DNA of 64,000 nucleotides from an uncultured bacterium. Lineage in GTDB: Bacteria > Patescibacteriota > Saccharimonadia > UBA4664. Under the pieces are notes generated by a model, which saw only the letters and a list, made by a program, of their open reading frames with translations, was not told the origin of the DNA and did no database searches. This document shows positions 1 through 14,314 of the stretch, one piece after another. The translations under genes and the position numbers were made by a program. The DNA lies in NCBI GenBank assembly GCA_963720265.1, contig CAVRET010000002.1:942069-1006068 (forward strand), written 5' to 3'. The first letter of the stretch is position 1; each line of letters opens with the position of its first letter.

Positions 1-3000
1 CATCCCAGCTCATATTTACCGTGCCGCCGGTACCAGGCTGCAGAGCACCTGCAGCGGGCCAATCGCCGCCACTGGGCGGCTGATTCCAGAGCTGGGTTTG
101 GCCGCCGAGGTAGTTTATAGGGGCACCGCCGTCCGAACCCAAGCCGTCTACTACTACCTGTGCGGTTGAGGTCGTGGCTACATTAAGGCTACTGTCGGTC
201 GTTCCGGTACCAGAGGCCGTGGCCACAGTCCCGAATGGCGTTGTCTGGTCGACATTATAGAACGTACTCGCGCCTATCAGCCTGCCGCAGGCGTTATTTA
301 ATAGTGTGGCCACAATGTTATGGGTCCCGGATGGAGGATTTAAAAGGTACCACATCTCCACGTGCGGGCCGGCCGCGCCCGCTACAGTGGAAAGCTGGGT
401 CAAATTTATTCCGTTATACGTAACTGAGGTGTATGAATCGGTGGTGCAAGTGATATCCGTGACCATAAGTAAACGATTGGATTGAGTGCCGGTGGTGAAG
501 CTAAGGGTGGCGTTAGCCGGGAAGCCGCCAATCATTGAGCCCGTATTATCAAGTGCTATGGCGTTGCCGCTGGGTTTGGCAGTTCTGAATATCAGGGACC
601 CCGATCCACCGGACCCGGTGCCGTTGGAGGCATCGAAGGTAATGTTGGCGCCATTGTCGTCAGTGCCAATGGCCGCGCCGCCTCGGACCGTGAGCGCGGT
701 CGGCGTATTGTCCTGACCCAGAACTAGTGCCGTATTGGTAGTGTCGGCCGTAAGCAAAGCCTCACCTGATGCATTCTGTATCTGGAAGGCGGTGGTGGAA
801 TTCGTGTAGTTTTCGAATGTCGCCGAGCCATTGGTTCCGATGGTCTCGGCCCCAACAGTCTGGTTGTTCGTGAAGAAAAGGAGGGGGTTATTTGAAAAGG
901 TTCCATAGGCACCACCCTCTGCGTCATTGAGAGCCGAGCCGACGGTCACGGTGCCGTCTGATTGGGCATATCCAACTTCGTCATTGCCAGTATTGGCCAT
1001 AAGCCACGCGCTGCAGGTGCTGGGAGCATACCCAACTACCACGCAGTGGTCGGCGGTGTCGACGTTGAGCAGGCTATCCCCGCCGGCGTCTTGAACCTGG
1101 AAGGCCGCGGTGGAATCGGCCGTGTTCTCAAGTGTAGTAGCACCGGTATTGGTGATGGTTGCCACATTCACGTCACCTGAACCAGTATTCGCCTGCACAT
1201 TGAGGAGATTCGCAGTTTGACCATTGGCTCCTTGCACAGTAAGACCGGTTTGGCCGACGCCGTCAGTCTCAACCTCGAGCGCCGAATTCGAGCTATTGGT
1301 GCCGACGCCGACGTTACCGTTGGCTTTGACGTTGAGCCGGTCGTAACCTGACCTTGCATAGGCTAATCCGCTAGCCGACGTGGCCGCGGCACTGTAGAGC
1401 GTGAGGTGGGTGTCATCGGTAATGCCGGCAATGATCCCGGGATTTGATTCGCCGTTAATGAGAATGGTGTCGCCGGCCTGGAAGGTAGTGGTAAAGGTTG
1501 TGCCGGAGCCGACGATTGCGGCCGTGCCATTGGTGGTAATTGTGCCGGGTTCAACTACGCCGTTGTAATAGGTTTGACTGCTACCGCTAGAAATTGAGGT
1601 GCTTACGGTCAGGCTCGTGTCACTGGCAATGGCCGTCACACTGCGGAGTTGACCGTTCACTAGGATTCCGTCGCCAACCCTAAAGTATTGTGTGAACTGG
1701 GTGCCGGTGCCAGTGACGGTGGTGGTGCCGTTGGTGGTGACGGTGCCAACGCCGGTGCCGGTGGAAGCAAACTGGCCGACATCATACGTACCCGCTTGAT
1801 AGGCTCTGAAGGCCGGTACGCTCGAGGTGTTGACGTTGAGCTTGGCGTTGGGGACGTTGTTGACGCCGACGGTTAGGGTGGTGCCGGACGTAGTTCCGAA
1901 GGTTGAGTTGTACGGGACGCTAAAGCCTACACCGGCGCCAACCGCAACTGTTGTGCCGTTGTCGGTGAGGTCAGAATTGCCGATGCTGCCGGTGCCGGTG
2001 AATTTGGCGATGGTATTGTTGGTACCGCCGCCGGTGGTAACACCGCCGCCAACGCCTGCGCAGTTGCCGCTGGTGGTGCAAAGATCGTAGTTGCCAGCGG
2101 CTAGGGCCGGGAAATTGAGGATGGCACTCGCGGTCGGCGTATCGAAACCGATAGTTGTGACTTTGCCGGAATTGGTTGCCGTGATGACGCTTGAGTCCGT
2201 GCCCTGGAGCGTGAAGGCCTGTCCGGTGGCGCCGAGCGTTAGGCCAGACGACGGTGTAATCGCATTGGTGTCGACGCCTACGAACGTGGGGGTGGCGCTG
2301 GTCGCGATGCTCTGAATAGTGTCAACGTTGCCCGATGAAACCGTGAAGTCGGTGGCATTAAATTGCGCCAGACCAAGTTGGGAGGTTGAGGCATCCTGAA
2401 TGGTAACCGTGGTGCCGGTACCGGTGGAGTTGGCTATGGTAAGGGCGCCGGGTAGGCTGTCGAGAGTTGTAACCCCGCCACCTCCGCCACTGGGGCAGGA
2501 GGTCCAGGTGGGGGCGCCGGCGGTTGACTCCAGGCAGAGGCTGGGAGATCCGGCCACCAATGATGACAGTGCGCTCGTGCCGCCTCCGATCAGCACGCCG
2601 TCGGCGGCAAGGCTGGTGGCGCCGGTGCCGCCTTGGGCCACACTCAGCGCAGTCGTGAGGCCAGAGAGTGAGGTGATGTCGGAGTTGGAGCCCGAGGCGG
2701 CAGCACCGAGGTTGGCGAGGGCACCGGCGGCGCTATTTGCGCCGGTACCGCCGTTTAGGATGCCCAGTTGACCTGTAAAGGTAATGTTGCCGGCGGCCGA
2801 GAGCGCAATATTGCCTGAGGCTGAGACAGCCAAGGTGCCGGAAGCATTTGGGACAGTAATTGATTGGCTGGCGCCTAGGGTTGCGGTTGTAACCGTGGTC
2901 GTAAAGCCGTCGGCGGTGCCGTCGTCGAACAACAGTGAACCGGCGGAGGAGGAGGAGCCGAGCGTGAGCGCGTTCGCACCGGCGAGTGTGGCAGCCGCAA

Positions 3001-6000
3001 AGGTTGGGGTCGAGGTGGTAGCAATGCCCTGGATGGTATCGATCGCGCCGGCAGAAGCCGTGAAGTCGGCGGCGTTAAACTGGGCGATGCCTTTTTGACT
3101 GGTGGAGGCGTCGTCGATGGTGACGGTGGAGCCCGAGCCGGTGGCGTTGGCGACCGCGAGGGCGCCGGACAGGCCGTTGAGCGAAGCTACTCCCCCACTG
3201 CCGCCGGACGAACCGGACAGGCAGGCGTTAAAGTTTAGGTTGCCATGCCCGTCGGTGGTGAGGCAGTTTCCGCTCGAACCGTCGGCCGTTGGCAGGGTGA
3301 AGGTGAGATTTGAACCGGAGACACCGGCTTGAAGGGTAAACGTGTTGTTATTGGTGCTGTTATCGAAGGTGATGCTACCGGTATTGCCCGAGGTCGTACC
3401 GAGCGTGAGGCCGCCCGTGCCCTGAATGACTCCGGCACCGGCAACGGTGATGGTGGTGCCGGATTGCGAGATGACAGAACTGCTCAAGGTTTGGGCACCC
3501 GTGAACACGGCGATGCTGCCATTGGCGCCGCCGCTCGCCGTAACACCGCCGCCGGAGCCTGCGCAGTTGCCGCTGGTGGTGCAAAGATCGTAGCTACCGG
3601 CGGCTAGGGCCGGGAAATTGAGGGTGGCACTCGCGGTCGGCGTATCGAAGCCGACGGTCGTGATTTTGCCCGTATTGGTAGCCGTAAAGACGCTTGAGGC
3701 ATTACCTTGGAGGGTAAAGGTTTGGGCAGTCGCGCCCAAGGTGAACGCTCCGGACGGCGTAATCGCGTTGGTGTCGAGCCCGGCAAAGGTCGGCGTCGCA
3801 CCAGTGTCGATATCCTGAACCGTGTTGATGACGCCGCTTGCCGCCTGGAAATTGGTACCGTTGAACGCGGCGACACCCTTTGTCGCGCCGTCGGCGGCCG
3901 CGTTTTGGATAGTTACCGTTGAGCCTGAGCCGGTTGAATCGGCAATTGTGACGACGCCCGACTGGTTGTCCAGCGAGGTAACGCCGCCGACTCCCCCGCC
4001 GGTGCAGGCAGCCCAGGTGGGAGCGCCGGCCGTTGATTCGAGACACAAATTCGGGGAAGCCGCCGCGAGTGCACTAATGGGACTCGTGCCGTTACCGAGG
4101 AGCACACCGTCAGCCGTGAGCGTAGTAGCGCCGGTGCCGCCCTGCAGCACATTAAGAGCGGTCGTGAGGCCGGAGAGCGAGGTGATGTCGGAGTTGGGGC
4201 CTGAGGCAGCGGCGCCTAAGTTTGTGCGGGCGCCGGCGGCAGCGGTGGCGCCGGTACCGCCCTGGTTTACGGCCAATGCGCTGGTGAACGTCACCGTGCC
4301 GGTGACCGACAGGTTGCCGGTGTCTGTTACAACCGTGCCGTTGTCAGTTAGGAGCGAAGGCGCAAGGTTGGAGCCTGAGGTATATTTGGGAATATCGCCG
4401 GCGACAGCAGCTGAGGTTGAAACACTGCCGCCTACACCGACGCAGTTTCCGGCCGTGGTGCAGACATCATAGGTGCCGGCAGCAGCAGTTTGCAAACGAT
4501 ACGTGACATTGGCTGTGGGCGCGACGAACGTAAGCTGGGCCGTGTTACCGGAGTTTGTGGCAGTGACGGTGGTGTTCGAGCCTTGCAGAGTAAGGGATTG
4601 CCCAATGGCGCCGACCGTGAGCGCAGCGCTGGGTGTGATGCTGTTCGTGTTAATGCCGGCAAAGGTTGGGCTGGCGGTGGTAGCAATATCTTGGATAGTG
4701 TTCACAAGGCCTGCGGCAACGGAAAAGTTGGTGGCGTTAAACTGGGCGATGCCTTTTTGCGCGGTGGAAGCGTCCTGAATGGTAATGGTGGTGCCTGTGC
4801 CGGTCGAATCGGCGACGGTGAGGGCGCCGGCCAGATTGTCCACGGTAGCAACTCCGCCGGTGCCGGGGCAGGCGGCCCAAATCGGGGCGCCGGCCGTTGA
4901 TACCAAGCAATCCCCGGCGGAGCCTGAAACCAGCGCTGATAGTGGGCTGGTACCCTCGGCGACGACAACGCCGTTGGCCGGTAGGCTGGTCGCACCGGTA
5001 CCGCCGCTGGCAACCGCGAGCGGGGCGGTAAGCGTGAGCCCGGCGAAGGTGGGCGAGGCCGTGACGTCTATGTTCTGGACGGTGTTAACCGCGCCGGCTA
5101 CGACCGAGAAGTTGCCCGCGTTAAAGCTGGCGAGGCCGGGCGTGGCCGTGGTGGCGCTATCGATGGTGATTGTGCCACCGGCACCGGTAGCATTTGCGAT
5201 GGTCACTGCCCCGGTTTGGCTGTTGACGGATGCTACTGCCGCACCGCCGGCGCAGGATCCCCACTGCAGATCGGTAGCTGCCGATTCGAGACACAGGCCG
5301 GCCGACCCTGGTGTGGCTACGCCCAATGAGGGGCCACCTTGACCGTAGAGAATGCCGAGATTCGGTACGCTTGTCAGCCCCGTGCCACCCTGGGTGATTG
5401 GGAGCGGAGTGCTTAAGATCAGATCAGAGATGGTGGTAGTCCCGGTTAAGCTGGCCGGTCCGGAGATGGTCACCGAGCCGCCCAGTGTGGTCTGACCGCC
5501 GACGTTTAGATTGCCGTTAAAGCTGTTTGTCGCGGTGAATGTATTACGGGCGCCCAGCAGGGCCGCACCGTTTTGCAGGCTCGCTATGGACGAAGTTAGT
5601 ACATAGGCGGAACCCGGTTTGCCGCCCAAGAGACTGGCATCGACGTTTGTTAGACCAGCCCCGTTGCCGGCGAGAGCGCCGGCCTGGAGCGTACCGGTAA
5701 ACGTGCCGTTTTGGGCGCCGGTGACGTTGCCCTGAATCGTAATATCGCCGGACACTTGCAGACTATGGGCGAGCAGGGTTTGGAGGCTTGCAGCTTGCGA
5801 CTCGAGATAGGTGACACTAAGCTGGCTTGGTCCCATCGCTGGTGCCGGCACTTGCTCGAGTCTTGAGGCCGGAATGGTGGTGGTCGGGCCGGATTTCGTG
5901 GCCGCAGTAGGCGATTCGTCCAGACCTGGTAAGTGAGCGAGTTTAATAACCGCAAAGCTGACAATTAGCGCAACCGCTACACCAAATCCAATATACGAGA

Positions 6001-6091: not shown

Positions 6092-6189
6092 ATCCTCACA
6101 TCACACAAAACTGTCTCAATTTTCCTCCCCCAAATGGATTAGCACAAGCTTTTTGCGTTGCCTAATGCCGTTATGGCTGCGCGAGAAAG

Positions 6190-6245
6190 GGAGCTTTAGT
6201 CGAACATCTTTTAGAATGGCTTGAAGGCTATGCCAATCTTTTAGC
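6190..6245 (-). repeat. Cassette-boundary repeat, copy A. It is the most diverged copy, carries the tagtcgaacatcttttagaatggcttgaagg..atgccaatctttt arm, and overlaps the mazF stop.
   Basis: It aligns with copies B, E and F over the agtcgaaca(c/t)cttttagaatgg(c/t)ttga.gg...atg.caa block. Confidence 0.7.
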
Positions 6246-6579
6246 CGTTTACCAGACTCGTAACCAGTCGTTGCGTCATTTTCATGACATCTTCATCAAC
6301 AGATCGATCGTACTTTACGCTGCGGCCTCTCCAATCCAGGCTTTTCATTTGGTCGGCAAGAATAACACCGTCGATGGCTCCGCTTTTGATTCGTACTTCA
6401 AAAGGATATTGTTTCACCTTGGAAGTTATGGGGCATGCGAGCATCAAGCCACTACTTGCATTGTATGATCTTGGCGACACCACGAGTGCCGGCCTGACTC
6501 CTGATTGTTCGTGGCCAACTTGGGGGCTAAAGTTTAGCCAGACGACATGACCCCTTTCGGGTACGTAGGCATTTACCAT
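6241..6579 (-). CDS. mazF: Type II toxin MazF/PemK endoribonuclease.
   Basis: The sequence VPERGHVVWLNFSPQVGHEQSGVRPALVVSP...LACPITSK is the canonical MazF/PemK motif. It overlaps the upstream mazE by 7 nt. Confidence 0.85.
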   Translation of the reverse strand: MVNAYVPERGHVVWLNFSPQVGHEQSGVRPALVVSPRSYNASSGLMLACPITSKVKQYPFEVRIKSGAIDGVILADQMKSLDWRGRSVKYDRSVDEDVMKMTQRLVTSLVNG

Positions 6580-6821
6580 ACTTCTTTGCCAACCGGTGCG
6601 CCCCAGTCTGTCTCCCCGTGCATATTTTCCGGAGTAATGCGTTTAACTAGGTCTTCCAGCGCAATTGGGGCATCTGCTTCCCGTTTGATGGTAGCAGTGC
6701 TACCGTCAGTCGTGATTTCAACATGGGTGTCATCTTGTAGGCCGAGATCACGTGCGATGCGCAACGGTATTCGAATTGCCAGGCTGTTTCCCCATTTTTT
6801 TACCTGAACAGTCGTCTTCAT
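6573..6821 (-). CDS. mazE: Type II antitoxin MazE (AbrB/SpoVT fold).
   Basis: MKTTVQVKKWGNSLAIRIPLRIARDLGL is the MazE/AbrB swapped-hairpin signature. It forms an operon with mazF. Confidence 0.8.
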   Translation of the reverse strand: MKTTVQVKKWGNSLAIRIPLRIARDLGLQDDTHVEITTDGSTATIKREADAPIALEDLVKRITPENMHGETDWGAPVGKEVW

Positions 6822-6922
6822 GCGTTACGCCTCCATTTACATTATTGTATCTTCTTGTATATACAAAAGCAACGTTACAAGTTTATACGAAAGTGTGATC
6901 CAATATTGTCACGTTTTTGTAC

Positions 6923-6988
6923 GCCTGAGTGGTCTCTTGTCGAACACCTTTTAGAATGGCTTGATGGGACTATGTCAATTTTTTAGCG
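6923..6988 (-). repeat. Cassette-boundary repeat, copy B (cctgagtggtctcttgtcgaacaccttttagaatggcttgatgggactatgtcaatttttt).
   Basis: It shares the ctgagtggtctc block with copy F and the full right arm with copies A, C and E. It ends 6 bp before the relE-like stop. Confidence 0.75.
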
Positions 6989-6993
6989 CTCAG

Positions 6994-7254
6994 TCATTCA
7001 TACAGCCGCGAGTGACTGCCTACCGCTACAAATACTGCCTCGTCGTTATTTTTCAGAATAAATAATGCCCGCAAGTCAGGCTGCACATCAATACTCCGGT
7101 AAGCTTTGTATTTGCCCCTTAAGGTATGGTTGCGAAGGGACTTGTGCAGAGGATTTTGTTCGAAAAGCTCGATGACTTCGGTTAAGACCTGCCTTTGCGA
7201 GACGTCGAGTAGCTTGACTTGGTTAACGAATCCTTTTGAAAAGGATATTTTCAT
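6994..7254 (-). CDS. Type II toxin of the RelE/ParE superfamily, YafQ-like.
   Basis: HTLRGKYKAYRSIDVQPDLRALFILKNNDEAVFVAVGSHSRLYE matches the YafQ/RelE C-terminal core. It overlaps the upstream antitoxin by 4 nt. Confidence 0.75.
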   Translation of the reverse strand: MKISFSKGFVNQVKLLDVSQRQVLTEVIELFEQNPLHKSLRNHTLRGKYKAYRSIDVQPDLRALFILKNNDEAVFVAVGSHSRLYE

Positions 7255-7532
7255 TTGGCTTCTTTGCGAAGAAAATCTAGCGCCTTTTCATTGCTATCGA
7301 ATGTGTAATAATCGCCGGCTTTGATTTCTTTACTCGTATCGGCCAAAAGTTCTGCAATGGCCGTATTGGGGACTTCCGGCAATTCAAAGGCTACGCTTTG
7401 TTCAGCAACGAAGCGTCTAAGCTCGTTGTTTAGGACCGCGCTGATACTGATGCCCAGTTTGTCTGCAGTTCTTGCAGCCTCCTCCTTGAGGAGAGGATCA
7501 GTCTTGAGATTGATGACAGAATATTTACTCAT
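7251..7532 (-). CDS. DinJ/RelB-family antitoxin.
   Basis: MSKYSVINLKTDPLLKEEAARTADKLGISISAVLNNELRRFVAEQ is a DinJ/RelB-like ribbon-helix-helix N-terminus. Start is taken at internal ATG 7532 and is translationally coupled to the toxin. Confidence 0.65.
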   Translation of the reverse strand: MSKYSVINLKTDPLLKEEAARTADKLGISISAVLNNELRRFVAEQSVAFELPEVPNTAIAELLADTSKEIKAGDYYTFDSNEKALDFLRKEAK

Positions 7533-7639
7533 ACCAAAAGTATATACCTTTGGTAGTATACGATCAACTGGAATAGACAAAAGCACCACCTTGACGCGGC
7601 AGATTAGTCACCATAATCTCTCTGAGGTTTTCCGCTATT

Positions 7640-7984
7640 TCACTCGCCGCTGATTAGCAAGGTGGCTTTTTCGGTTGCCTCACGAAGAACGGACTTAGGA
7701 GCTTTCATTATAAATGCCGTTTCCCTTGCCTGGTAATCAACACTTCGAACATGGATAGTCAGTATAGCGCCTTGGATCTTGCCGCTATTTATAGCCACTT
7801 CATAGGGCTTGTCCTTTGGCTTGCTCGTAATCGGACAAATTACTACGAGGCCGGTCCGTGCAGCAAGCAACTCCCTGGAAAGCACGAGCACTGGTCTTCG
7901 GCCTGATTGCTCATGGGCGGTCCTTGGGTCGAGCTGTAACCACAGAATATCGCCGCGGTCAGGTATATACGGGTTACTCGTCAT
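7640..7984 (-). CDS. mazF: Type II toxin MazF/PemK (second copy, a diverged paralogue).
   Basis: IPDRGDILWLQLDPRTAHEQSGRRPVLVLS...VVICPITSK. Confidence 0.85.
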   Translation of the reverse strand: MTSNPYIPDRGDILWLQLDPRTAHEQSGRRPVLVLSRELLAARTGLVVICPITSKPKDKPYEVAINSGKIQGAILTIHVRSVDYQARETAFIMKAPKSVLREATEKATLLISGE

Positions 7985-8231
7985 ACCAGCGTTCGGCTCC
8001 TACATCGGGTCCCCAGTCGGACTGTGGATGGACATTATCGGGAGTGACTCCTTCGAGCATGTCCTCAAGTGTCAGCTTACGCGTCGGTGTCGCTGTGATT
8101 ACCATTGTTTTGCCGTTGCTTTTAATCTCAATGTCGGAGTCGTCGGAGAGGCCCAGGTCCTCCGCTACGTGCTGCGGAACTCGGATGGCGAGGCTGTTCC
8201 CCCACTTCTTAACTTTTGCGTCGACTTTCAT
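7974..8231 (-). CDS. mazE: Type II antitoxin MazE (second copy).
   Basis: MKVDAKVKKWGNSLAIRVPQHVAEDLGL. An AGGAGAG RBS precedes ATG 8231, so the listed longer ORF start at 8261 is probably not used. Confidence 0.8.
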   Translation of the reverse strand: MKVDAKVKKWGNSLAIRVPQHVAEDLGLSDDSDIEIKSNGKTMVITATPTRKLTLEDMLEGVTPDNVHPQSDWGPDVGAERWYDE

Positions 8232-8266
8232 ATTAGCTCTCCTGGCAGTATATACCATCATGTCTA

Positions 8267-8297
8267 TTGATGGCCTTATGTCAAATTTTAATAAGCG
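8267..8297 (-). repeat. Cassette-boundary repeat, copy C. Only the right arm survives (ttgatggccttatgtcaaattttaataagcg).
   Basis: It matches the right arm of copy E (ttgatggccttatgtcaactttttagcc). The left, tRNA-like arm is replaced by the mazE start region. Confidence 0.6.
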
Positions 8298-8303
8298 AGC
8301 CTG

Positions 8304-8723
8304 TTAGGCTGACTTTGGTAGGTCGCTCCGAAATATATTTTTTAGCTCTCTTGGATGTGTTACGCCGATGCCACGAAAAGGATTTAACAGCAATAGATCT
8401 TGATCGGCTGAAATTATTAGGTGTGCTGGTGCTGCTAAAGCACACTCGAGAATCATTATATCGTCCGGATCGCGAATCGTACCCCGTTCCAGGTGACTGG
8501 ATGGATTTATTATAGAAGCACGCTCTCGGATCCCGCTAATAAATGCGTCTACTCGCTCAGCACTGAAGCTGAATTCATGGACAAGCTTTTCTCTAAGCTC
8601 GTCAAGAATCGGGTCCGAAACAAACAATTCGAACGAGCTTCGTGGCTGGCCAGCAATTCTAAGCCACATCTCGGTTGGTCCACCCGGTTTTAAGGCGGCG
8701 GCAATGAAAATGTTGGTGTCAGC
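8304..8723 (-). CDS. vapC: PIN-domain toxin (VapC-like). The N-terminal PIN motif lies upstream of the first canonical start codon.
   Basis: The listed ORF (from MWLRIAG) carries IRDPDDIMILECALAAPAHLIISADQDLL. The same frame continues upstream as VVADTNIFIAAALKPGGPTE with no ATG, GTG or TTG. The PIN acidic-triad N-terminus is therefore encoded but lacks a standard start. Confidence 0.55.
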   Translation of the reverse strand, partial: ADTNIFIAAALKPGGPTEMWLRIAGQPRSSFELFVSDPILDELREKLVHEFSFSAERVDAFISGIRERASIINPSSHLERGTIRDPDDIMILECALAAPAHLIISADQDLLLLNPFRGIGVTHPRELKNIFRSDLPKSA

Positions 8724-8730
8724 AACAACC

Positions 8731-8964
8731 CTAATTTTCTTTGAGGTATCGATAGACGTCGTCCTCAGTTTCCAGACCTAACCTGGCCGCGATAACTCGC
8801 CCTTCGGCCTGTATGTCGTCCAGGGCGCGATGAAACCGGTACGATTTATACATGTCGCGCAAGATATCGCTCTTAGAGCGCTGCTCTTGGGCAGCGAGCT
8901 GGTCAATCCCATCCTTTACATCTAGCTCGATTGAAAAGCTGGCAATGGTTTTTGGCTGCTTCAT
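8731..8964 (-). CDS. Ribbon-helix-helix (CopG/VapB-like) antitoxin.
   Basis: A small protein lies immediately upstream of the PIN gene. Its C-terminus, AARLGLETEDDVYRYLKEN, is typical of RHH antitoxins. Confidence 0.55.
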   Translation of the reverse strand: MKQPKTIASFSIELDVKDGIDQLAAQEQRSKSDILRDMYKSYRFHRALDDIQAEGRVIAARLGLETEDDVYRYLKEN

Positions 8965-8992
8965 TCTAATTCTTTCCTAATAGTTTTTATTA

Positions 8993-9205
8993 TTGTTCAT
9001 AGAAACTATTAGTGTCAAGCTCACTTTTGACGCGTTCATCAAGACAGTTTTGTTTGCAGATCAACGAAAAGACTCGTTTGGGCTGTTAAACATAAGACCC
9101 TTGGCGCGCGAAGTGGCTCTAGAATGGAACACTTTATACCCTAGTTTGCTCAAGATCGACAGTAAGCTAGAGAAACTTGGTCTTACTGACGAGCTTATCA
9201 AATGA
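8993..9205 (+). CDS. Small hypothetical protein (70 aa). Its C-terminus is homologous to the small ORF at 13566–13703.
   Basis: EWNTLYPSLLKIDSKLEKLGL versus RWNHFVPSLYLMHRKLAELGV. Both are followed by the same conserved element. Confidence 0.45.
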   Translation: MFIETISVKLTFDAFIKTVLFADQRKDSFGLLNIRPLAREVALEWNTLYPSLLKIDSKLEKLGLTDELIK

Positions 9206-9290
9206 ACCGCCTGAAGGCTCAAGTACGAAACTTAAGCACTCGGGTGGTGCTCCCGGCACCACTTCTTTATATAGACGGTGCTTTTGTGTA
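9204..9290 (+). other. Conserved double-hairpin element (copy 1), found downstream of the small ORF.
   Basis: atgaaccgcctgaaggctcaag...ctcgggtggtgctcccggcacc matches 13700–13760 at about 80 percent. Hairpin 1 is gctcaag/cttaagc and hairpin 2 is ggtgc-tcccg-gcacc. Both hairpins are retained in the second copy with changed sequence. Confidence 0.5.
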
Positions 9291-9320
9291 AGATATTTTT
9301 TTGTATAGATGATTTCAAAG

Positions 9321-9382
9321 GGTGCCTCTCAGCGGTCGCCAGTCGAACACCTTTGTGCTGGCTTGATCGGATGATGTCAAGC
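9321..9382 (-). repeat. Cassette-boundary repeat, copy D (ggtgcctctcagcggtcgccagtcgaacacctttgtgctggcttgatcggatgatgtcaagc).
   Basis: The ggtgcc...agtcgaacacc left arm and the ttgat.gg.tgatgtcaa right arm are both recognisable. Confidence 0.7.
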
Positions 9383-9405
9383 ATCGGGAGCCAGGCACCG
9401 CCAAC

Positions 9406-9939
9406 TCAACGTCGCTTGCTTTGATAATGGACGAGTTGACCAAATCCTTGTATAATTTGTTGATCCGGTAAACCGAAACCGGCGAGTGCAAAGGATTCGC
9501 AATGTTCCTGAACAGCGCTAACCGTGCGTACGTCAGCCGGTGGCTTGTCCGCCCCCACGAGGGCGCACTGCTTCGTGTCTGGACCAGGGTTGATGAGCTT
9601 ATCGGATGGCCCGGGCTGAATACCGAGACCAGTATTCTGGCAGCATTCATGATGCCCACAAATGCCGATCAGCCCTGTGCCGGTGGCTGCTCTGGCCGCA
9701 CCGAGCATGCTGTGTCGCAGACGATTTCCTGGTCCGTAGGGGAGCTCCCAAACCAGAGGTGGCCGCACCCGGTCTTCGACAGTCACACACCACACGACCT
9801 GGCATGTATAGCGGCTCACAATAGGATGAACGGCCCGCATCCTCCAGGAGACCGTACCTTCGTACCCGAGCTCCGGATCGACGGGAATCTTCCTACTGGT
9901 GCAGCGCTGGGCCGGGTGACGATAGCACGGAGCCACCAT
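9406..9939 (-). CDS. Hypothetical cassette ORF (177 aa), GC-rich relative to its flanks.
   Basis: Only its orientation and its position between repeats D and E support the call. The competing plus-strand ORF 9502–10080 cannot be excluded. Confidence 0.35.
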   Translation of the reverse strand: MVAPCYRHPAQRCTSRKIPVDPELGYEGTVSWRMRAVHPIVSRYTCQVVWCVTVEDRVRPPLVWELPYGPGNRLRHSMLGAARAATGTGLIGICGHHECCQNTGLGIQPGPSDKLINPGPDTKQCALVGADKPPADVRTVSAVQEHCESFALAGFGLPDQQIIQGFGQLVHYQSKRR

Positions 9940-10210
9940 TTTCTCTGTACAGTGGCAGCTGGCGAGCCGGTCGAGGGCGTACAGCCCTACCAGCTGCTGG
10001 CCGAACTGCTACTGGGGGTTATCCGGTGGGACCTGGCCAAGGAGCCCGCCCGTCGCCTGGCCCCAGCTGGTCACGGGTAAGTTCGCAAGCATCACCGGTG
10101 GCGGCGCCCCGCAGGAGCGGGTGCCGCCACCGGTCTGGCTTTTAATTAGACGTTTAAAGATGGGTCTGTTACAGATTTTTGTTGTTACCAAGACCAGAAG
10201 AATAAGAATG

Positions 10211-10287
10211 ATTCCTTGGTGCCCCAGAGGGAACTCTAGTCGAACACCTTTTACAATGGTTTGATGGCCTTATGTCAACTTTTTAGC
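10211..10287 (-). repeat. Cassette-boundary repeat, copy E (attccttggtgccccagagggaactctagtcgaacaccttttacaatggtttgatggccttatgtcaacttttt).
   Basis: Read on the gene strand, it is GGTGTTCGACTAGAGTTCCCTCTGGGGCACCAAGGAAT. That is a tRNA-like T-loop followed by a CACCA tail. Confidence 0.8.
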
Positions 10288-10528
10288 CTAAAATCGTCTT
10301 TTTTCGACCGAGTGTGTTTTCTTGACACTGCGGTTAAAATGCTGTCGTGTTCCAGTTTTTGCTTTTTAAGCGAAGTGGATATTCCGGGTGATCGGTCGCC
10401 CGGCAGCTGGAAGCTGCCGGGCGGGACCGTTGCTCAGTGTTCTCAGTCCCGAGATGAATGCGAACAAGTAAATCGGAAGGAGGCTTCGCCGGGTCGACCC
10501 CTAGGCGGTTAGTAGGCGCTGGGGGCGC

Positions 10529-10846
10529 CTAATCTTCCGCGGCGGTCAGCCGCGCTGCTCCACTGGAGACAGAAATGATGTACGTCTGCCCGCCCTTGCG
10601 GACGAGTAGTTGTGCACCGTTTCGAATCTCCGCGAAGCAAAAACCGCCGAGCTGAAGCAGTTGGCATGCAGCATCGGTACGAGTGAGGTTAGCTTCAACC
10701 TCATGATGATGCAGTGCCGCTTCAGCCTCGGGGATGAGCAGGACACTCAACCTGCTCGTAACGGTCCCAGATCCAGGGGCATCAACTAGGTTGACGCTCG
10801 TAGTCACAAGTAAGTAACATTGAGATAATCTTCGGCATCGGACCAA
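10529..10846 (-). CDS. Hypothetical protein (about 100 aa).
   Basis: It is a cassette-oriented ORF that overlaps the end of the upstream gene. No family could be assigned. Confidence 0.35.
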   Translation of the reverse strand: MVRCRRLSQCYLLVTTSVNLVDAPGSGTVTSRLSVLLIPEAEAALHHHEVEANLTRTDAACQLLQLGGFCFAEIRNGAQLLVRKGGQTYIISVSSGAARLTAAED

Positions 10847-11400
10847 ATACTTATAATGTACTCCCCTTTGTGCAGGGTGTATTTTCGCATCGCGTCATAC
10901 TGTGGGTCATGAATGAACGGTAAGTCCTTGTAACCGTACTCATCGCCCTCAAGCCATAATTGTCCAAATTTGGGATTAAAATATTCAACCAAAACGCCAT
11001 TTTCGCTCATTGTTAATGGGTCTTTGCTCAATTGGATATCCAATGTGAGTCCGCCGGACGCTTCTGGGCTAGCATCTGTGTAATACCCCATCGCTTTTAA
11101 CTCGCCATCAAGCTGTCGCAGGTTCTGAGTGAAATTGCCGTTGTTTTTCGACAGTTTTAAAAAATAGTACGAACACTGGAAAGTTGCCGACATGCCTCCA
11201 GCTTCATTCTCGCACGTACTGAAGACATTTGAGGTTAGTAACTGGCCTGGCAATATGATTTGGTTTGATATTGAACTTACGCGACTTCTCACCTTAATAC
11301 TGTTTCGCCAAATGCTGAAGGTGCCTATAAGCAAACCGAGCGCCAAAACAATAAGGATATAAAGTACCGACTTCTTTTTGCTCGAAAGTTTGACGCTCAT
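10804..11400 (-). CDS. Secreted or membrane-anchored hypothetical protein (198 aa), AT-rich.
   Basis: It has a Lys-rich N-terminus followed by a hydrophobic helix, VLYILIVLALGLLIGTF. Its composition is distinct from the neighbouring genes. Confidence 0.55.
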   Translation of the reverse strand: MSVKLSSKKKSVLYILIVLALGLLIGTFSIWRNSIKVRSRVSSISNQIILPGQLLTSNVFSTCENEAGGMSATFQCSYYFLKLSKNNGNFTQNLRQLDGELKAMGYYTDASPEASGGLTLDIQLSKDPLTMSENGVLVEYFNPKFGQLWLEGDEYGYKDLPFIHDPQYDAMRKYTLHKGEYIISIWSDAEDYLNVTYL

Positions 11401-11572
11401 GTTGTTATATGAACCTTACATGGTTCATACATTCAGCACAAGAAAGGGGCCCCACCCCATGCTTTACCGGCCGAGGCGAGGCGCGAAATGTTGGTAGTTC
11501 AGTTGGTTAAACACGGTATCAATGAACAACCAAAATATACCGCCTTGTTTGGCGACATTTTTTTGATTGTGA

Positions 11573-11648
11573 TAATTCCTCTGGTGCCCCTGAGTGGTCT
11601 CCAGTCGAACACCTTTTAGGATGGTTTGATAGGATTATGTCAGCTTTT
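11573..11648 (-). repeat. Cassette-boundary repeat, copy F (ataattcctctggtgcccctgagtggtctccagtcgaacaccttttaggatggtttgataggattatgtcagc). It overlaps the vapC stop.
   Basis: It shares aattcctctggtgc with copy G (12476–12500) and the arm with copies B and E. Confidence 0.8.
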
Positions 11649-12027
11649 GCGTAAATTCGTTTGGCGACATTATCTGAGTATTTTTGTGAGCCTTAAGAGT
11701 AAGGAGGTCGTTGTCTGCAGTTACGAGATAATCCACTCTGCCCTCTATTGCTGCGGCTAGTACATAATCGTCGAGTGGATCGCGAGAGATGTGCTCGACG
11801 ATTTTGGGGACCACAACTTCAGACAGCTTTCCTAGGGCGTTACTGGTCACTTTGGCTTTTTGACTCGTGAAGCCAAATTTTGTCCGGAGAACAGCCTCGA
11901 GTTCGGCCAGGATGTAATCTGACGTTACGTGAACGTTTGCCGGGGTCTCCAACAGATTTCTAAACCGAGCGAGCTCTTCTCTCCTTGTCATAGTGGCCAG
12001 AACGTTTGTATCGTACAGAAACCGCAT
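11635..12027 (-). CDS. vapC: PIN-domain toxin VapC.
   Basis: MRFLYDTNVLATMTRRE...VDYLVTADNDLL carries the PIN catalytic Asp motifs. Confidence 0.85.
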   Translation of the reverse strand: MRFLYDTNVLATMTRREELARFRNLLETPANVHVTSDYILAELEAVLRTKFGFTSQKAKVTSNALGKLSEVVVPKIVEHISRDPLDDYVLAAAIEGRVDYLVTADNDLLTLKAHKNTQIMSPNEFTQKLT

Positions 12028-12340: not shown

Positions 12341-12447
12341 GATATATACATATATTGTATATATTGGCTACACTGCGGTCAAGAAATTACGCGTTGGTGT
12401 GCAGTACAAAAACACAATGGTTTGAACATAGCGTTGAACATAGCGTT
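12341..12447 (-). promoter_or_regulatory. Likely promoter and operator region for vapBC. It holds AT-rich palindromes and a 12-bp tandem repeat, ttgaacatagcg repeated twice, at 12424–12447.
   Basis: acatacatgatatatacatatattgtatatat and the tandem gaacatagcgttgaacatagcgtt lie immediately 5' of the antitoxin gene. TA antitoxins typically autoregulate through repeated operators. Confidence 0.4.
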
Positions 12448-12475
12448 TTTGTATTAAACGCTATAGATTTGTTGA

Positions 12476-12500
12476 ATAATTCCTCTGGTGCGCGAGAGAG
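12476..12500 (-). repeat. Cassette-boundary repeat, copy G. It is an exact 15-bp copy of the tRNA-Leu 3' terminus (tggtgcgcgagagag) fused to the aataattcctc arm.
   Basis: 12486–12500 equals 14229–14243 at 15/15. The left flank aataattcctctggtgc equals copy F. This copy therefore bridges the tRNA and the diverged cassette repeats. Confidence 0.8.
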
Positions 12501-12719
12501 ACACATTCTGGAACCCACTCCTGGAAGGTGTGCTCAAAGTTGACGCGAGACTAACCAAACTCGGGTATATTTTTTTAGACGGAGAAGTCGCTATCATCGA
12601 ACCAGACGCGGAGATGACCCGTGTTTAGCCCGCAGAAAACTGAAGGCCCCCGATTGCTCGGCGGCCTCAGTCACCCTGAGGTTCGCGCTACAATGCGAGG
12701 GCGGATGGTCCTGAGTAGC

Positions 12720-13436: not shown

Positions 13437-13565
13437 ACGGGAACTTCCTCTCGTGGGCAAGATCTCACTTTCGGATTGTACTATTGTAGCATTTTTGGTA
13501 ATTGTTGTCAATTTCGAAGAAATAAAGCAAAAAACTCCCACGTGGGAGTTTTAAGCATAAGAACG

Positions 13566-13703
13566 ATGGTGCGCGTACTGGATAGTAGGTGGAACCACTT
13601 CGTGCCTAGCCTGTACCTTATGCACAGGAAACTAGCGGAATTAGGAGTGGTTCTAGTGGAGGGCAAAGTCTGCCACGCCGCCGAAGATGGGACTTTGCGA
13701 TGA
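13566..13703 (+). CDS. Small hypothetical protein (45 aa). It is homologous to the C-terminus of the 8993–9205 ORF.
   Basis: MVRVLDSRWNHFVPSLYLMHRKLAELGVVLVEGKVCHAAEDGTLR. It follows a bidirectional terminator hairpin and is followed by the conserved element. Confidence 0.4.
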   Translation: MVRVLDSRWNHFVPSLYLMHRKLAELGVVLVEGKVCHAAEDGTLR

Positions 13704-13790
13704 ACCACCTGAAGGCTCAAACACAACGCTTGAGCGCTCGGGTGGTTCCCACCGGCTCGCCGAAGCGGTCAAGCCGGTGGGGTGCAGTGG
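13700..13790 (+). other. Conserved double-hairpin element (copy 2).
   Basis: atgaaccacctgaaggctcaaacacaacgcttgagcgctcgggtggttcccaccgg. Hairpins gctcaa/ttgagc and ggtgg/ccacc are retained; compare 9204–9290. Confidence 0.5.
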
Positions 13791-14047: not shown

Positions 14048-14130
14048 CGTTATGCCAATCTGCTCAGTGCCGTGACAAGGTGTTCACGGTGCTATACATT
14101 GTACTATATTTTGTTAACTTTGTCAATGCT

Positions 14131-14156
14131 CAGAGCGAAAGAGGAGTCGAACCCGG
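14131..14156 (-). repeat. Degenerate second copy of the tRNA-Leu 3' half (T-loop plus acceptor 3' strand), about 70 bp from the intact tRNA.
   Basis: agaggagtcgaacc matches at 14/14. The flanking cagagcgaa is similar to gtgcgcgag. The 5' T-stem strand is not complementary, so this is a junction remnant and not a gene. Confidence 0.6.
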
Positions 14157-14169
14157 TGCCAGATAGGAA

Positions 14170-14215
14170 ATTGAATAAATGCAAAAAGACGCCCGAGTCG
14201 GGACGTCTTCTTATC
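14170..14215 (-). terminator. Stem-loop between the tRNA 3' end and the degenerate copy.
   Basis: The hairpin aagacgcccgagtcgggacgtctt is followed by a T-rich run when read on the minus strand. Confidence 0.4.
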
Positions 14216-14228
14216 TGTAAAACTAAAA

Positions 14229-14314
14229 TGGTGCGCGAGAGAGGAGTCGAACCTCCACGCCATTGCTGGCACTAGTACCTGAAACTAGCGTGTCTACCAT
14301 TCCACCACTCGCGC
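14229..14314 (-). tRNA. tRNA-Leu (anticodon CAG) with a long variable arm and an encoded CCA.
   Basis: The reverse complement folds as acceptor GCGCGAG/CTCGCGC, anticodon loop TTCAGGT, a 13-nt variable arm, T-loop GGTTCGACTCC, discriminator A, then CCA. Confidence 0.85.

What the first reader, a model, noticed from the sequence alone, without database searches (positions are those of the whole stretch)
8993..9290. Recurring module of a small ORF plus a conserved double-hairpin element
The same module recurs at 8993–9290 and 13566–13790, in two different elements of the accretion series.

Both places have a small plus-strand ORF whose C-terminus is conserved: WN-x-(L/F)-(Y/V)-PSL-x-(K/L)-(I/M)-(D/H)-x-KL-x-(K/E)-LG. 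Each ORF is followed by an element of about 60–90 nt. The first 23 nt are near-identical (atgaacc.cctgaaggctcaa). Two hairpins are then retained in both copies, but their stem sequences differ between copies.

The module recurs in different cassettes, on the strand opposite to the cargo genes. This suggests it belongs to the mobile machinery itself. It could be a second att arm, a recombination directionality factor with its binding site, or a small structured RNA.
Basis: seen in the sequence. Interest (0 to 1): 0.65.

Follow-up and report, generated by a model that had tools for sequence, protein, structure and literature searches.

The report
Small gene capping tRNA-integrated elements
The repeated module is the conserved end-piece of small mobile DNA elements that inserted one after another next to a leucine tRNA gene: a copy of the tRNA's 3' end, a real but undescribed ~46-codon gene, and a conserved RNA hairpin.

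Summary
The window holds three copies of the small ORF (9101-9205, 12485-12628, 13566-13703, + strand). Two of them carry the hairpin element.

The ORF is a genuine gene. At least 155 clusters of ~46-aa proteins match it, the substitution pattern is coding in this frame only, and no Pfam, NCBIfam, PHROGs, PADLOC or PDB match exists.

Each copy starts with (N)TGGTGCGCG, the reverse complement of the 3' end of tRNA-Leu. Each is preceded by a displaced tRNA trailer and terminator. The same layout (small ORF, cargo on the other strand, tRNA) recurs at tRNA-Leu and tRNA-Gly genes in unrelated metagenomes.

In fuller elements, one with conjugation genes, the ORF overlaps the start of a PLD-family nuclease gene.

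The 'atgaacc...' block is not a leader peptide. It is the 5' arm of an 18-bp hairpin (HP1) found at ten places in total. Nine distinct copies were aligned and show compensatory changes and many G·U pairs on the + strand. A variable GC-rich hairpin follows it.

The module therefore marks junctions in a series of insertions at tRNA-Leu(CAG), with no integrase found nearby. An excisionase role is not supported. The functions of the protein and of HP1 remain inferred.

The parts
9040..9100 (+). Left flank of copy 1. It is a degenerate hairpin plus the trailer ..GTTAAACATAAGACCCT. This is homologous to the trailer and terminator that follow tRNA-Leu(GAG) genes in L036 and L037, read as reverse complement.
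9101..9205 (+). Small ORF copy 1, with TTG start and 34 codons plus stop. This is the short form, matching HMM positions 1-29. The same short form ending ..ELIK* is conserved in L033-L035 (protein P0084). The att core TGGCGCGCGA lies at 9102-9111.
9204..9251 (+). HP1 copy 1, a conserved hairpin. The outer stem is GAACCGCCUGA / UCGGGUGGUGC, then a 2x2 internal loop, then the inner stem GCUCAAG / CUUAAGC.
   Evidence: covariance-model hit 9200-9254, 70 bits
9242..9264 (+). HP2 copy 1 (GUGGUGC-UCCCG-GCACCAC) followed by CUUUAUAU. It is terminator-like. It shares GGUGGUG with the 3' arm of HP1, so the two pairings are alternatives.
12440..12484 (+). Hairpin (ATAGCGTTT..AAACGCTAT) plus T-rich trailer preceding copy 3.
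12485..12628 (+). Small ORF copy 3, not in the original finding. It has a CTG at the start position and 47 codons. Positions 12486-12500 are 15/15 identical to the tRNA-Leu 3' end (reverse complement). It is followed by a GTG-started remnant resembling the N-terminus of the PLD gene (MFSPQKTEGPRLLGGLS).
13520..13565 (+). Displaced tRNA terminator hairpin (AAAACTCCCACGTGGGAGTTTT) plus the trailer AAGCATAAGAACG. It is almost identical to the flank of tRNA-Leu(GAG) in L036 and L037.
13566..13703 (+). Small ORF copy 2, with ATG start and 45 codons plus stop. The att core TGGTGCGCG lies at 13567-13575.
13698..13752 (+). HP1 copy 2.
   Evidence: 74.7 bits
13748..13781 (+). HP2 copy 2 (CCCACCGGCU..AGCCGGUGGG). 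It is a GC-rich variable hairpin with no U-tract.
14135..14153 (-). Partial duplicate of the tRNA-Leu acceptor and T-arm, 18/19 identical. It lies beside the terminator. The same fragment is present in L033.
14182..14228 (-). Terminator hairpin and trailer of the resident tRNA-Leu.
14229..14314 (-). tRNA-Leu(CAG) with encoded CCA. It is the anchor (attB side) of the insertion series.
6174..11652 (+). Rest of the series. Six 'B-type' junction repeats start at 6174, 6916, 8267 (half copy), 9320, 10217 and 11582. The best-preserved copies (10217, 11582) begin with the same TGGTGC core; the copy at 6174 has TGGCTGC and the copies at 6916 and 9320 are degenerate. The full copies carry AGTCGAAC, or TGTCGAAC at 6916. 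They separate toxin-antitoxin and other small cassettes on the - strand.

Best explanation
The module is the conserved distal end of a family of small integrative elements that insert by site-specific recombination into the 3' end of tRNA genes, here tRNA-Leu.

Each insertion regenerates the tRNA. It pushes the previous junction outward, so a series builds up. Each junction reads, on the + strand: displaced tRNA terminator, trailer, the TGGTGCGCG core (the tRNA 3' end), and then the element's first gene. That gene is a translated reading frame of about 46 codons whose first codons are supplied by the tRNA-derived core.

In fuller relatives the gene overlaps the start of a single-HKD PLD-family nuclease gene (..nATGTTTAG..). 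My best guess is that the product is an acidic partner or inhibitor of that nuclease, like an antitoxin or immunity protein.

In the tRNA-Leu lineage seen in this window the nuclease gene is gone. In two of the three copies the ORF is followed instead by a conserved RNA hairpin (HP1) abutting a variable GC-rich hairpin (HP2). Most likely these form the 3' end of the short transcript and insulate it from the convergent cargo genes.

The three window copies are junction relics, or integrase-less 'CIME-like' units, of three insertion events. No integrase was found nearby, so any present mobility would need one supplied in trans.

Shown: the anatomy, the tRNA homology, the coding signature, the family size, the PLD coupling in relatives and the HP1 covariation.

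Inferred: the order of events, the protein's role and the role of HP1.
For: - Core and flanks. Copy 3 shares 15/15 nt with the tRNA-Leu 3' end. Copy 2 shares 10 nt, and copy 1 shares 9/10. The left flanks are tRNA trailers and terminators. False N-terminal extensions of family members are translations of that trailer, and P0072 reads straight into a tRNA.
- The same architecture occurs elsewhere. L036 has the ORF at 330 and tRNA-Leu(GAG) at 1329-1412. L033 has ORFs at 90, 1967 and 3168/4443 and tRNA-Leu(GAG) at 6188. L028 has the ORF at 8653 and tRNA-Gly at 11228.
- The gene is real. An exhaustive profile search found 155 clusters at E <= 1e-3, all short. The median distance from the start position to the stop is 46 codons. 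pN/pS is 0.52 in the ORF frame and 0.86 and 1.42 in the other two. Variability by codon position is 0.46 / 0.29 / 0.54 over 14 DNA copies.
- Coupling to a PLDc_2 gene, followed by a 63-69 aa ORF and an XRE regulator. L031 also carries type IV secretion genes.
- Charge. The small protein has median pI 5.4, and the PLD partners have pI 7.9-10.
- HP1. Nine distinct copies were aligned (L024 repeats L021, giving ten places). 88.9% of cells are paired. Six pairs change on both sides, and 0 of 500 shuffles reach this. G·U pairs dominate two columns. All copies fold into HP1 plus HP2 with z between -2.6 and -6.7.
- No integrase was found among the ORFs scanned.
- Serial integration at one tRNA, leaving partial tRNAs and degenerate remnants, is documented for other elements (bioRxiv 10.1101/2020.12.28.424599, read).
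Against: - The start position is ATG in only about 55% of family members and Leu (CTG or TTG) in the rest.
- No Shine-Dalgarno sequence is evident from reading the sequence, and no sigma-70-like promoter precedes the window copies. Translation is therefore inferred from evolution, not shown.
- No intact element of the tRNA-Leu/HP1 lineage with an integrase or a PLD gene was recovered.
- No integrase of any lineage was seen on the contigs at hand, so the recombinase is unknown.
- HP2 has a U-tract only in copy 1, so a terminator role is weak.
- Most HP1 covariation comes from one divergent copy (L037:1776).
- The antitoxin or inhibitor idea rests only on gene order and charge.
Confidence: 0.6

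Rival explanations
1. The small protein is an excisionase or recombination directionality factor, and HP1 or the adjacent core is its binding site. It would bend DNA next to the att core and steer an integrase acting in trans.
For: - It always abuts the att core.
- It is small, with a helix plus a beta-hairpin 'wing'.
- Its N-terminal half is slightly basic.
Against: - No match to Xis, HTH_17 or AlpA, or to any other model, for 97 members.
- Only a chance-level PDB sequence match at E = 1.3. No Foldseek match at E <= 0.001.
- One continuous helix, not a helix-turn-helix.
- Net acidic in about 60% of members.
- Translationally coupled to a PLD nuclease gene, with no integrase nearby.
Confidence: 0.12
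2. The HP1/HP2 unit is a DNA-level site: a secondary att core, an oriT-like nick site or a folded single-strand recombination site. Cargo would be exchanged there, so the module would be a mini-cassette bounded by two TGGTGC cores.
For: - The 3' arm of HP1 ends in GGGTGGTGC in most copies, the same hexamer as the att core.
- Similarity between loci ends a few bases later and the sequence beyond varies.
- L037:951 has the core, 12 nt, and then HP1, with the ORF deleted.
- Copy 1 is a 220-bp unit lying between two cores.
Against: - G·U pairs are frequent on the + strand. Columns 10-47 and 13-44 hold 13 G·U cells, which would be A·C mismatches on the other strand.
- L021 and L033:4617 share HP2 and a third hairpin beyond the supposed crossover.
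- No relaxase, HUH enzyme or integrase was found near any copy.
- The TGGTGC hexamer is absent from copy 2 (TGGTTC), from L021 and L033:4617 (TGGTGA) and from L037:951.
Confidence: 0.12
3. The whole module is one non-coding structured RNA (a small RNA or cis-regulator), and the ORF is only an apparent one.
For: - One compensatory change inside the ORF, CCUGU/ACAGG to CCUAU/AUAGG in L023.
- HP1 is structured.
- No canonical start context.
Against: - Codon-position pattern and a pN/pS minimum in one frame only.
- Conserved ORF length and stop.
- L025 and L026 keep the peptide but lose the CCUAG..CUAG pairing.
- Overlap with the PLD start codon.
- No Rfam hit.
Confidence: 0.06
4. The ORF is a leader peptide, and the alternative HP1/HP2 pairings form an attenuator controlling a downstream gene.
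For: - GGUGGUG can pair either with GAACCNCC (HP1) or with CACCAC (HP2) in copy 1, L036, L033 and L021.
- In L025 and L026 the ORF sits 20 nt upstream of an MFS transporter gene.
Against: - In the window and in L033, L036 and L037 the next gene is convergent, so there is nothing to regulate.
- The conserved part of the peptide is N-terminal and the C-terminus varies, the opposite of arrest peptides.
- L025 and L026 lack HP1.
Confidence: 0.05
5. A simple local segmental duplication with no function.
For: Two copies lie 4.5 kb apart on the same strand.
Against: - Only 73% identity, with different flanks.
- A third, more divergent copy is present.
- Homologous modules occur in at least 10 unrelated metagenome contigs, and there are 155 protein clusters.
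Confidence: 0.02

Closest known systems
Tandem accretion of tRNA-targeting integrative elements and their integrase-less derivatives (CIMEs of the ICESt1/ICESt3 type; tycheposon arrays and remnants in Prochlorococcus islands)
   Same: - Serial insertion at the 3' end of one tRNA gene.
- Junctions marked by partial tRNA copies.
- Older units pushed outward and degraded.
- Units lacking their own integrase.
- Low-GC island: 47% against about 58%.
- The phenomenon is described in bioRxiv 10.1101/2020.12.28.424599 and in the IME review PMC5704250 (listed, not read).
   Different: - The units are very small (0.2-1.4 kb), and several cassettes carry their own strong promoter-like site.
- The tRNA identity segment is only 9-15 nt.
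- Every A-type junction carries a conserved ~46-codon gene starting inside the core, which to my knowledge is not described for those systems.
- No integrase was seen at all.
Integron cassette arrays (IntI, attI, attC), especially chromosomal arrays rich in toxin-antitoxin cassettes
   Same: - An array of short, mostly single-operon cassettes in one orientation.
- Many are toxin-antitoxin pairs.
- Each is bounded by a repeated site with hairpin potential.
   Different: - No IntI.
- The sites are not attC: no R''/L''/L'/R' palindrome and no GTTRRRY (and reading of the sequence).
- Several cassettes are preceded by their own promoter-like site.
- The anchor is a tRNA gene, not attI.
Type II toxin-antitoxin operons or nuclease-inhibitor pairs (small acidic first gene overlapping a toxin gene)
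   Same: In L030, L031 and L032 the small gene overlaps the start of a basic PLD (HKD) nuclease-like gene by 8-17 nt. The small protein has an acidic tail.
   Different: - No DNA-binding antitoxin fold (RHH, HTH or AbrB).
- PLD toxins with such partners are not an established TA family in PADLOC or Pfam.
- In the window the nuclease gene is absent.
Excisionases/RDFs (lambda Xis, Tn916 Xis, AlpA/HTH_17)
   Same: Small size, position close to an att site, and a helix followed by a beta-hairpin.
   Different: No sequence or fold match, mostly acidic, and not adjacent to an integrase.

Membership tests
att junction of a tRNA-targeting integrative element (accretion / CIME-like remnant) | Direct repeat of the tRNA 3' end at the junction, in the same orientation as an intact tRNA gene nearby | tested here: met
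   Identity to tRNA-Leu(CAG) at 14229-14314 is 15/15 nt for copy 3, 10 nt for copy 2 and 9/10 for copy 1. The same holds in L036, L033 and L028.
att junction of a tRNA-targeting integrative element (accretion / CIME-like remnant) | Displaced tRNA flank (trailer and terminator) on the outer side of the repeat | tested here: met
   The flank of copy 2 matches the flank of tRNA-Leu(GAG) in L036 and L037.
att junction of a tRNA-targeting integrative element (accretion / CIME-like remnant) | Site-specific recombinase (integrase) encoded by the element or nearby | tested here: not met
   No integrase or recombinase domain in 36 Pfam-scanned ORF translations of the window, two of them alternative frames of one region. 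The precomputed Pfam calls for the TA genes of 6241-8964 (L016) show none either. No site-specific integrase appears in the gene tables of L028-L037; those tables do list DDE_Tnp_1 and rve transposase domains in L028 and L033. The window scan was not exhaustive.
att junction of a tRNA-targeting integrative element (accretion / CIME-like remnant) | Excision, circular intermediate, or an empty site in related strains | not testable with these tools
   Only the same genome was recovered (L015, L016).
Excisionase / RDF | Match to Xis, HTH_17 or AlpA-type models, or a winged-helix fold | tested here: not met
   0 of 97 members hit Pfam or PHROGs. No significant NCBIfam, PADLOC or PDB match. The AF2 model is a single helix plus a hairpin, with no Foldseek match at E <= 0.001.
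Excisionase / RDF | Basic DNA-binding protein encoded next to the integrase | tested here: not met
   Median pI 5.4. The neighbour is a PLD nuclease gene or cargo.
Integron | IntI integrase with attI, and attC sites (R''-L''...L'-R', GTTRRRY) | tested here: not met
   No IntI. The junction repeats fold weakly and lack the R boxes (and sequence reading).
Type II toxin-antitoxin / nuclease-inhibitor pair | Small first gene overlapping a toxin gene | tested here: inconclusive
   Met in L030, L031 and L032, with the PLDc_2 gene starting inside the end of the small ORF. In the window only a 17-aa PLD-like remnant follows copy 3. Toxicity and neutralisation are untested.
Second ORF / leader peptide starting at ATGAACC | Conserved start codon and reading frame across copies | tested here: not met
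   L036 lacks the ATG. Loop length is 11 nt in three copies (L036, L037:2552, L037:951), 13 nt in five, and 14 nt in the divergent L037:1776 as aligned. The register relative to the small ORF differs in L036 and L037.
Known RNA families (Rfam 15), including T-box | Covariance-model hit | tested here: not met
   Only the tRNA reaches the threshold. Permissive scans of both copies give chance-level hits.
Intrinsic terminator | GC-rich hairpin followed by a U-tract | tested here: inconclusive
   Met for HP2 of copy 1 at 9242-9264. Not met for copy 2, L036, L037 or L033.

The most novel reading that the evidence does not exclude
The window shows a tRNA-anchored, integron-like cassette platform, probably in a small-genome uncultured bacterium. 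Nine units of 0.2-1.4 kb, several with their own promoter-like site, are each bounded by a hairpin, a trailer and a TGGTGC site. They would be captured one by one at tRNA-Leu by a recombinase acting in trans. The ~46-aa protein and/or the HP1 hairpin, whose 3' arm ends in the same TGGTGC core, would be the cis-acting 'cassette end' needed for capture or excision. That would make them a new class of accessory factor and folded recombination site.
Probability: 0.12. Interest if true: 0.75.

Novelty: new variant of a known kind. Interest (0 to 1): 0.45.

Why it matters
- It explains the architecture of the island. The recurring module is a practical marker for junctions of a widespread family of tRNA-targeting elements that annotation misses: the ORF is unnamed in every source seen here.
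- It defines an undescribed small-protein family of at least 155 clusters. Its reading frame begins inside the tRNA-derived attachment core across elements that use different tRNAs, an unusual link between an att site and a gene.
- It points to a candidate nuclease-partner pair at the ends of conjugative elements.
- It defines a new conserved RNA hairpin with covariation.
- If the protein or hairpin takes part in recombination, the array would be an integron-like capture system anchored on a tRNA gene.

Tried and rejected
- Exact-pattern scans for GAACCNCCTGAAGGCTCAA in genome contigs (14 hits) and viral contigs (4 hits) gave only chance matches lacking the second block.
- Rfam at gathering and at permissive thresholds found nothing but the tRNA. 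A T-box resemblance (GGGUGGU) was considered and dropped for lack of any model hit.
- I tested whether the ORF's reverse complement is itself a tRNA-like gene. It shares a 10-mer, CGCTAGTTTC, with the anticodon arm. The idea was rejected: no cloverleaf, the 10-mer is not conserved in other members, and ARAGORN and Rfam are negative.
- I tested whether ATGAACC.. starts a truncated second gene, with N-terminus MNHLKAQ... This was rejected because of frame-breaking loop lengths and a copy without an ATG.
- The attC/integron reading of the 72-nt repeats was rejected.
- The AF2 model gave no usable fold match.
- A covariance model of HP1 found no further copies in the window or in the loci held, including copy 3.
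- A possible derivation of HP1 from the 5' end of the PLD gene was noticed. It rests on a shared CCGCCTGA in L023 and CTGAAGGC..GCTCGG in copy 3. It is too weak to claim.

Full report
**1. The observation**

The sequences are as described. The 21-mer ATGAACCNCCTGAAGGCTCAA occurs only at 9202 and 13700, against 0.01 expected. The two regions align at 73% identity over about 250 nt, beginning upstream of the claimed peptide at ..CATAAGA... Both fold into two adjacent hairpins.

An HMM built from relatives finds three copies of the ORF in the window, all on the + strand:
- 9101-9205
- 12485-12628, which is new
- 13566-13703

**2. The ORF is a real gene of an undescribed family**

- A profile of the two window peptides first found two metagenome proteins.
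- An exhaustive profile search then found 155 clusters (50% identity) at E <= 1e-3. All are short.
- Counted from the conserved start position, the product is 44-48 aa in half of them, with a median of 46.
- The consensus is (M/L)VRxxDxxWNxxxPSLxLxxxKLxxLGxxxxxGxVxY followed by an acidic tail.
- In 14 DNA copies pN/pS is 0.52 in this frame, against 0.86 and 1.42 in the other two. Variability by codon position is 0.46 / 0.29 / 0.54.
- None of 97 members matches Pfam or PHROGs. The window copies and two intact members match nothing meaningful in NCBIfam or PADLOC. The profile's only PDB sequence match is at chance level, E = 1.3.
- AlphaFold2 gives a helix (residues 2-25) plus a beta-hairpin at pLDDT 73. 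Foldseek finds no match at E <= 0.001.

Caveat: the start position is Leu (CTG or TTG) in about 45% of members. No promoter-like site precedes the window copies.

**3. The ORF begins inside a tRNA-derived attachment core**

- The resident tRNA-Leu(CAG) lies at 14229-14314 on the - strand.
- Read on the + strand, its end is TGGTGCGCGAGAGAGGAGTCGAACC. It is preceded by a trailer (CTTATCTGTAAAACTAAAA) and a terminator hairpin.
- Copy 3 starts CTGGTGCGCGAGAGAG, 15/15 identical (z = 7.5). Copy 2 starts ATGGTGCGCG. Copy 1 starts TTGGCGCGCGA.
- Each copy is preceded by a hairpin plus trailer. The flank of copy 2 is almost identical to the flank of genuine tRNA-Leu(GAG) genes in L036 and L037.
- Many database members have false N-terminal extensions, such as ..QNKK..LLICNxxMV.. 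or ..NSQxGVLSIRT.. These are translations of such trailers, and one member (P0072) runs into a tRNA.
- In other lineages the first codons differ (MAG.., MVS..) along with a different core (TGGCTGGCC, TGGTGAGCC). This is what different target tRNAs would give.

**4. The same layout elsewhere**

The order small ORF (+), cargo (mostly -), tRNA (-) recurs in three other loci:
- L036: about 1 kb to tRNA-Leu(GAG).
- L033: four ORF copies, one split by an insertion sequence, upstream of tRNA-Leu(GAG).
- L028: tRNA-Gly.

In L026 an MFS transporter cassette lies between an ORF-type junction and a junction of the second type. Both share the same hairpin, trailer and core.

**5. Fuller elements**

In L030, L031 and L032 the end of the ORF overlaps the ATG of a ~160-aa single-HKD PLDc_2 protein (..nATGTTTAG..). 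That protein weakly resembles NucT and the Mokosh PLD domains. A 63-69 aa ORF and an XRE regulator follow.

L031 continues into TrbC, TrbL, PrgI and TraC-like genes, so it is a conjugative element. In L029 a PLDc_2 gene lies about 1.1 kb downstream of the ORF, beyond a methyltransferase gene on the other strand.

This overlap explains the family's conserved ..(N/D/H)V* end. The small protein is mostly acidic (median pI 5.4) and the PLD partners are basic. After copy 3 in the window, a GTG-started MFSPQKTEGPRLLGGLS resembles the PLD N-terminus (MFSFRKTPPQDLLTSKL), so it looks like a remnant. L023 carries a longer remnant.

**6. The hairpin element**

HP1 was found at ten places:
- window, two places
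- L021 and L024 (the same sequence)
- L033:199 and L033:4617
- L036
- L037:2552 and L037:951
- a divergent copy at L037:1776

Four facts rule out a second ORF or leader peptide:
- Loop length is 11 or 13 nt.
- L036 has no ATG.
- The register relative to the ORF varies.
- In L033:4617 HP1 lies about 110 nt after the stop codon.

On nine distinct sequences the 18-bp model is 88.9% paired. Six pairs change on both sides, and 0 of 500 shuffles reach this. Slid controls give 22-43% pairing. G·U pairs are frequent in the + sense, which favours an RNA in the sense of the ORF. The minus strand nevertheless folds about as stably.

HP2 abuts HP1, is GC-rich and varies freely. L021 and L033:4617 also share a third hairpin. 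HP2 has a U-tract only in copy 1.

In most copies the 3' arm of HP1 ends in TGGTGC, the core hexamer. GGUGGUG can pair alternatively with CACCAC of HP2. I could not decide what these two facts mean. A covariance model finds no further copy in the sequence held.

**7. Context in the window**

The island spans about 6.2-14.2 kb. Its GC is about 47-53%, against about 58% for the rest of the window. It consists of nine short units. Each starts with the A-type junction (the small ORF) or with a B-type ~72-nt repeat.

The best-preserved B-type repeats begin with the same TGGTGC core, and the full copies contain a T-loop-like AGTCGAAC. The leftmost (6174) matches the tRNA end at 16/17 positions.

Cargo lies on the - strand, and several cassettes are preceded by strong promoter-like sites:
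- MazEF, two pairs
- YafQ with its antitoxin
- PIN with RHH, two pairs
- several unknown genes

No integrase was found among the ORFs scanned. The genome is known only as a 1.1-Mb contig.

**8. Interpretation**

The module is the conserved distal end of tRNA-3'-end-targeting elements. Its recurrence reflects serial insertion at tRNA-Leu. That process is documented for other element families (the reviews listed were not read).

New here are the att-embedded small gene family, its coupling to a PLD nuclease gene, and HP1. The protein's role (nuclease partner or inhibitor, about 0.3) and the role of HP1 (3'-end or insulator structure, about 0.4) are inferences. The RDF and DNA-site alternatives are kept at about 0.12 each.

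Noticed in passing
It is full length (47 codons), has CTG at the start position, and its first 15 nt after that codon's C are identical to the tRNA-Leu 3' end. It has no HP1.
   Followed up: yes
window 6174-6245, 6916-6987, 8267-8289, 9320-9385, 10217-10287, 11582-11652; also L026 3965-4030: These ~72-nt 'B-type' junction repeats take the place of the small ORF after the same hairpin and trailer. The best-preserved copies (10217, 11582) start with TGGTGCC. The full copies contain AGTCGAAC, which is T-loop-like. On the - strand they carry a TTGACA..TAAAAG promoter-like motif pointing out towards the core. They may be degenerate tRNA-Leu 3' parts or the end of a second element family.
   Followed up: partly
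window 14135-14153 (and L033 6100-6125): A partial duplicate of the tRNA-Leu acceptor and T-arm (18/19 nt) lies just outside the terminator of the resident tRNA. It is conserved in position in L033.
   Followed up: partly
window 12621-12680: A GTG-started MFSPQKTEGPRLLGGLS overlaps the stop of copy 3. It resembles the N-terminus of the PLDc_2 proteins that follow the small ORF in L030-L032, so it looks like a gene remnant.
   Followed up: partly
window 8989-9018, 12354-12382, 13483-13511, 14098-14126 (- strand): Near-consensus sigma-70-like promoters (TTGACA-17/18-TACAAT or AATAAT) precede four - strand cassettes, immediately beside the junction sites. 13 promoter-like sites were found in the region, against 4.0 expected.
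   Followed up: no
window 9406-10080: Two overlapping long ORFs lie on opposite strands: 192 aa on + and 177 aa on -. Neither has a Pfam hit. The Logan gene call takes the + strand ORF. Which one, if either, is real is unclear.
   Followed up: no
L033 3168-4505: A small-ORF copy is split by an insertion sequence (a DDE_Tnp_1 gene at 3335-4423). The N-terminal half is at 3168-3242 and the C-terminal half at 4443-4505. HP1 follows 110 nt downstream.
   Followed up: partly
L037 930-1010: A deletion variant: the core TGGTGCGCGAGA, then 12 nt, then HP1 and HP2, with the small ORF missing.
   Followed up: partly
window 1-6000: A GC-rich (61-63%) region with several families of 200-230-nt direct repeats at 64-74% identity and many GGT/GCC-rich short repeats. 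This is consistent with one or more very large repetitive proteins encoded on the - strand, next to the island.
   Followed up: no
L023 505-600 versus HP1 copies: The PLD N-terminal remnant in L023 contains CACGCCGCCTGACGAGC. This resembles both the end of the copy 2 ORF (CACGCCGCCGAAGATGG) and the 5' arm of HP1 (CCGCCTGAAGGC). HP1 may have arisen from the 5' end of the PLD gene, but the similarity is too short to judge.
   Followed up: no
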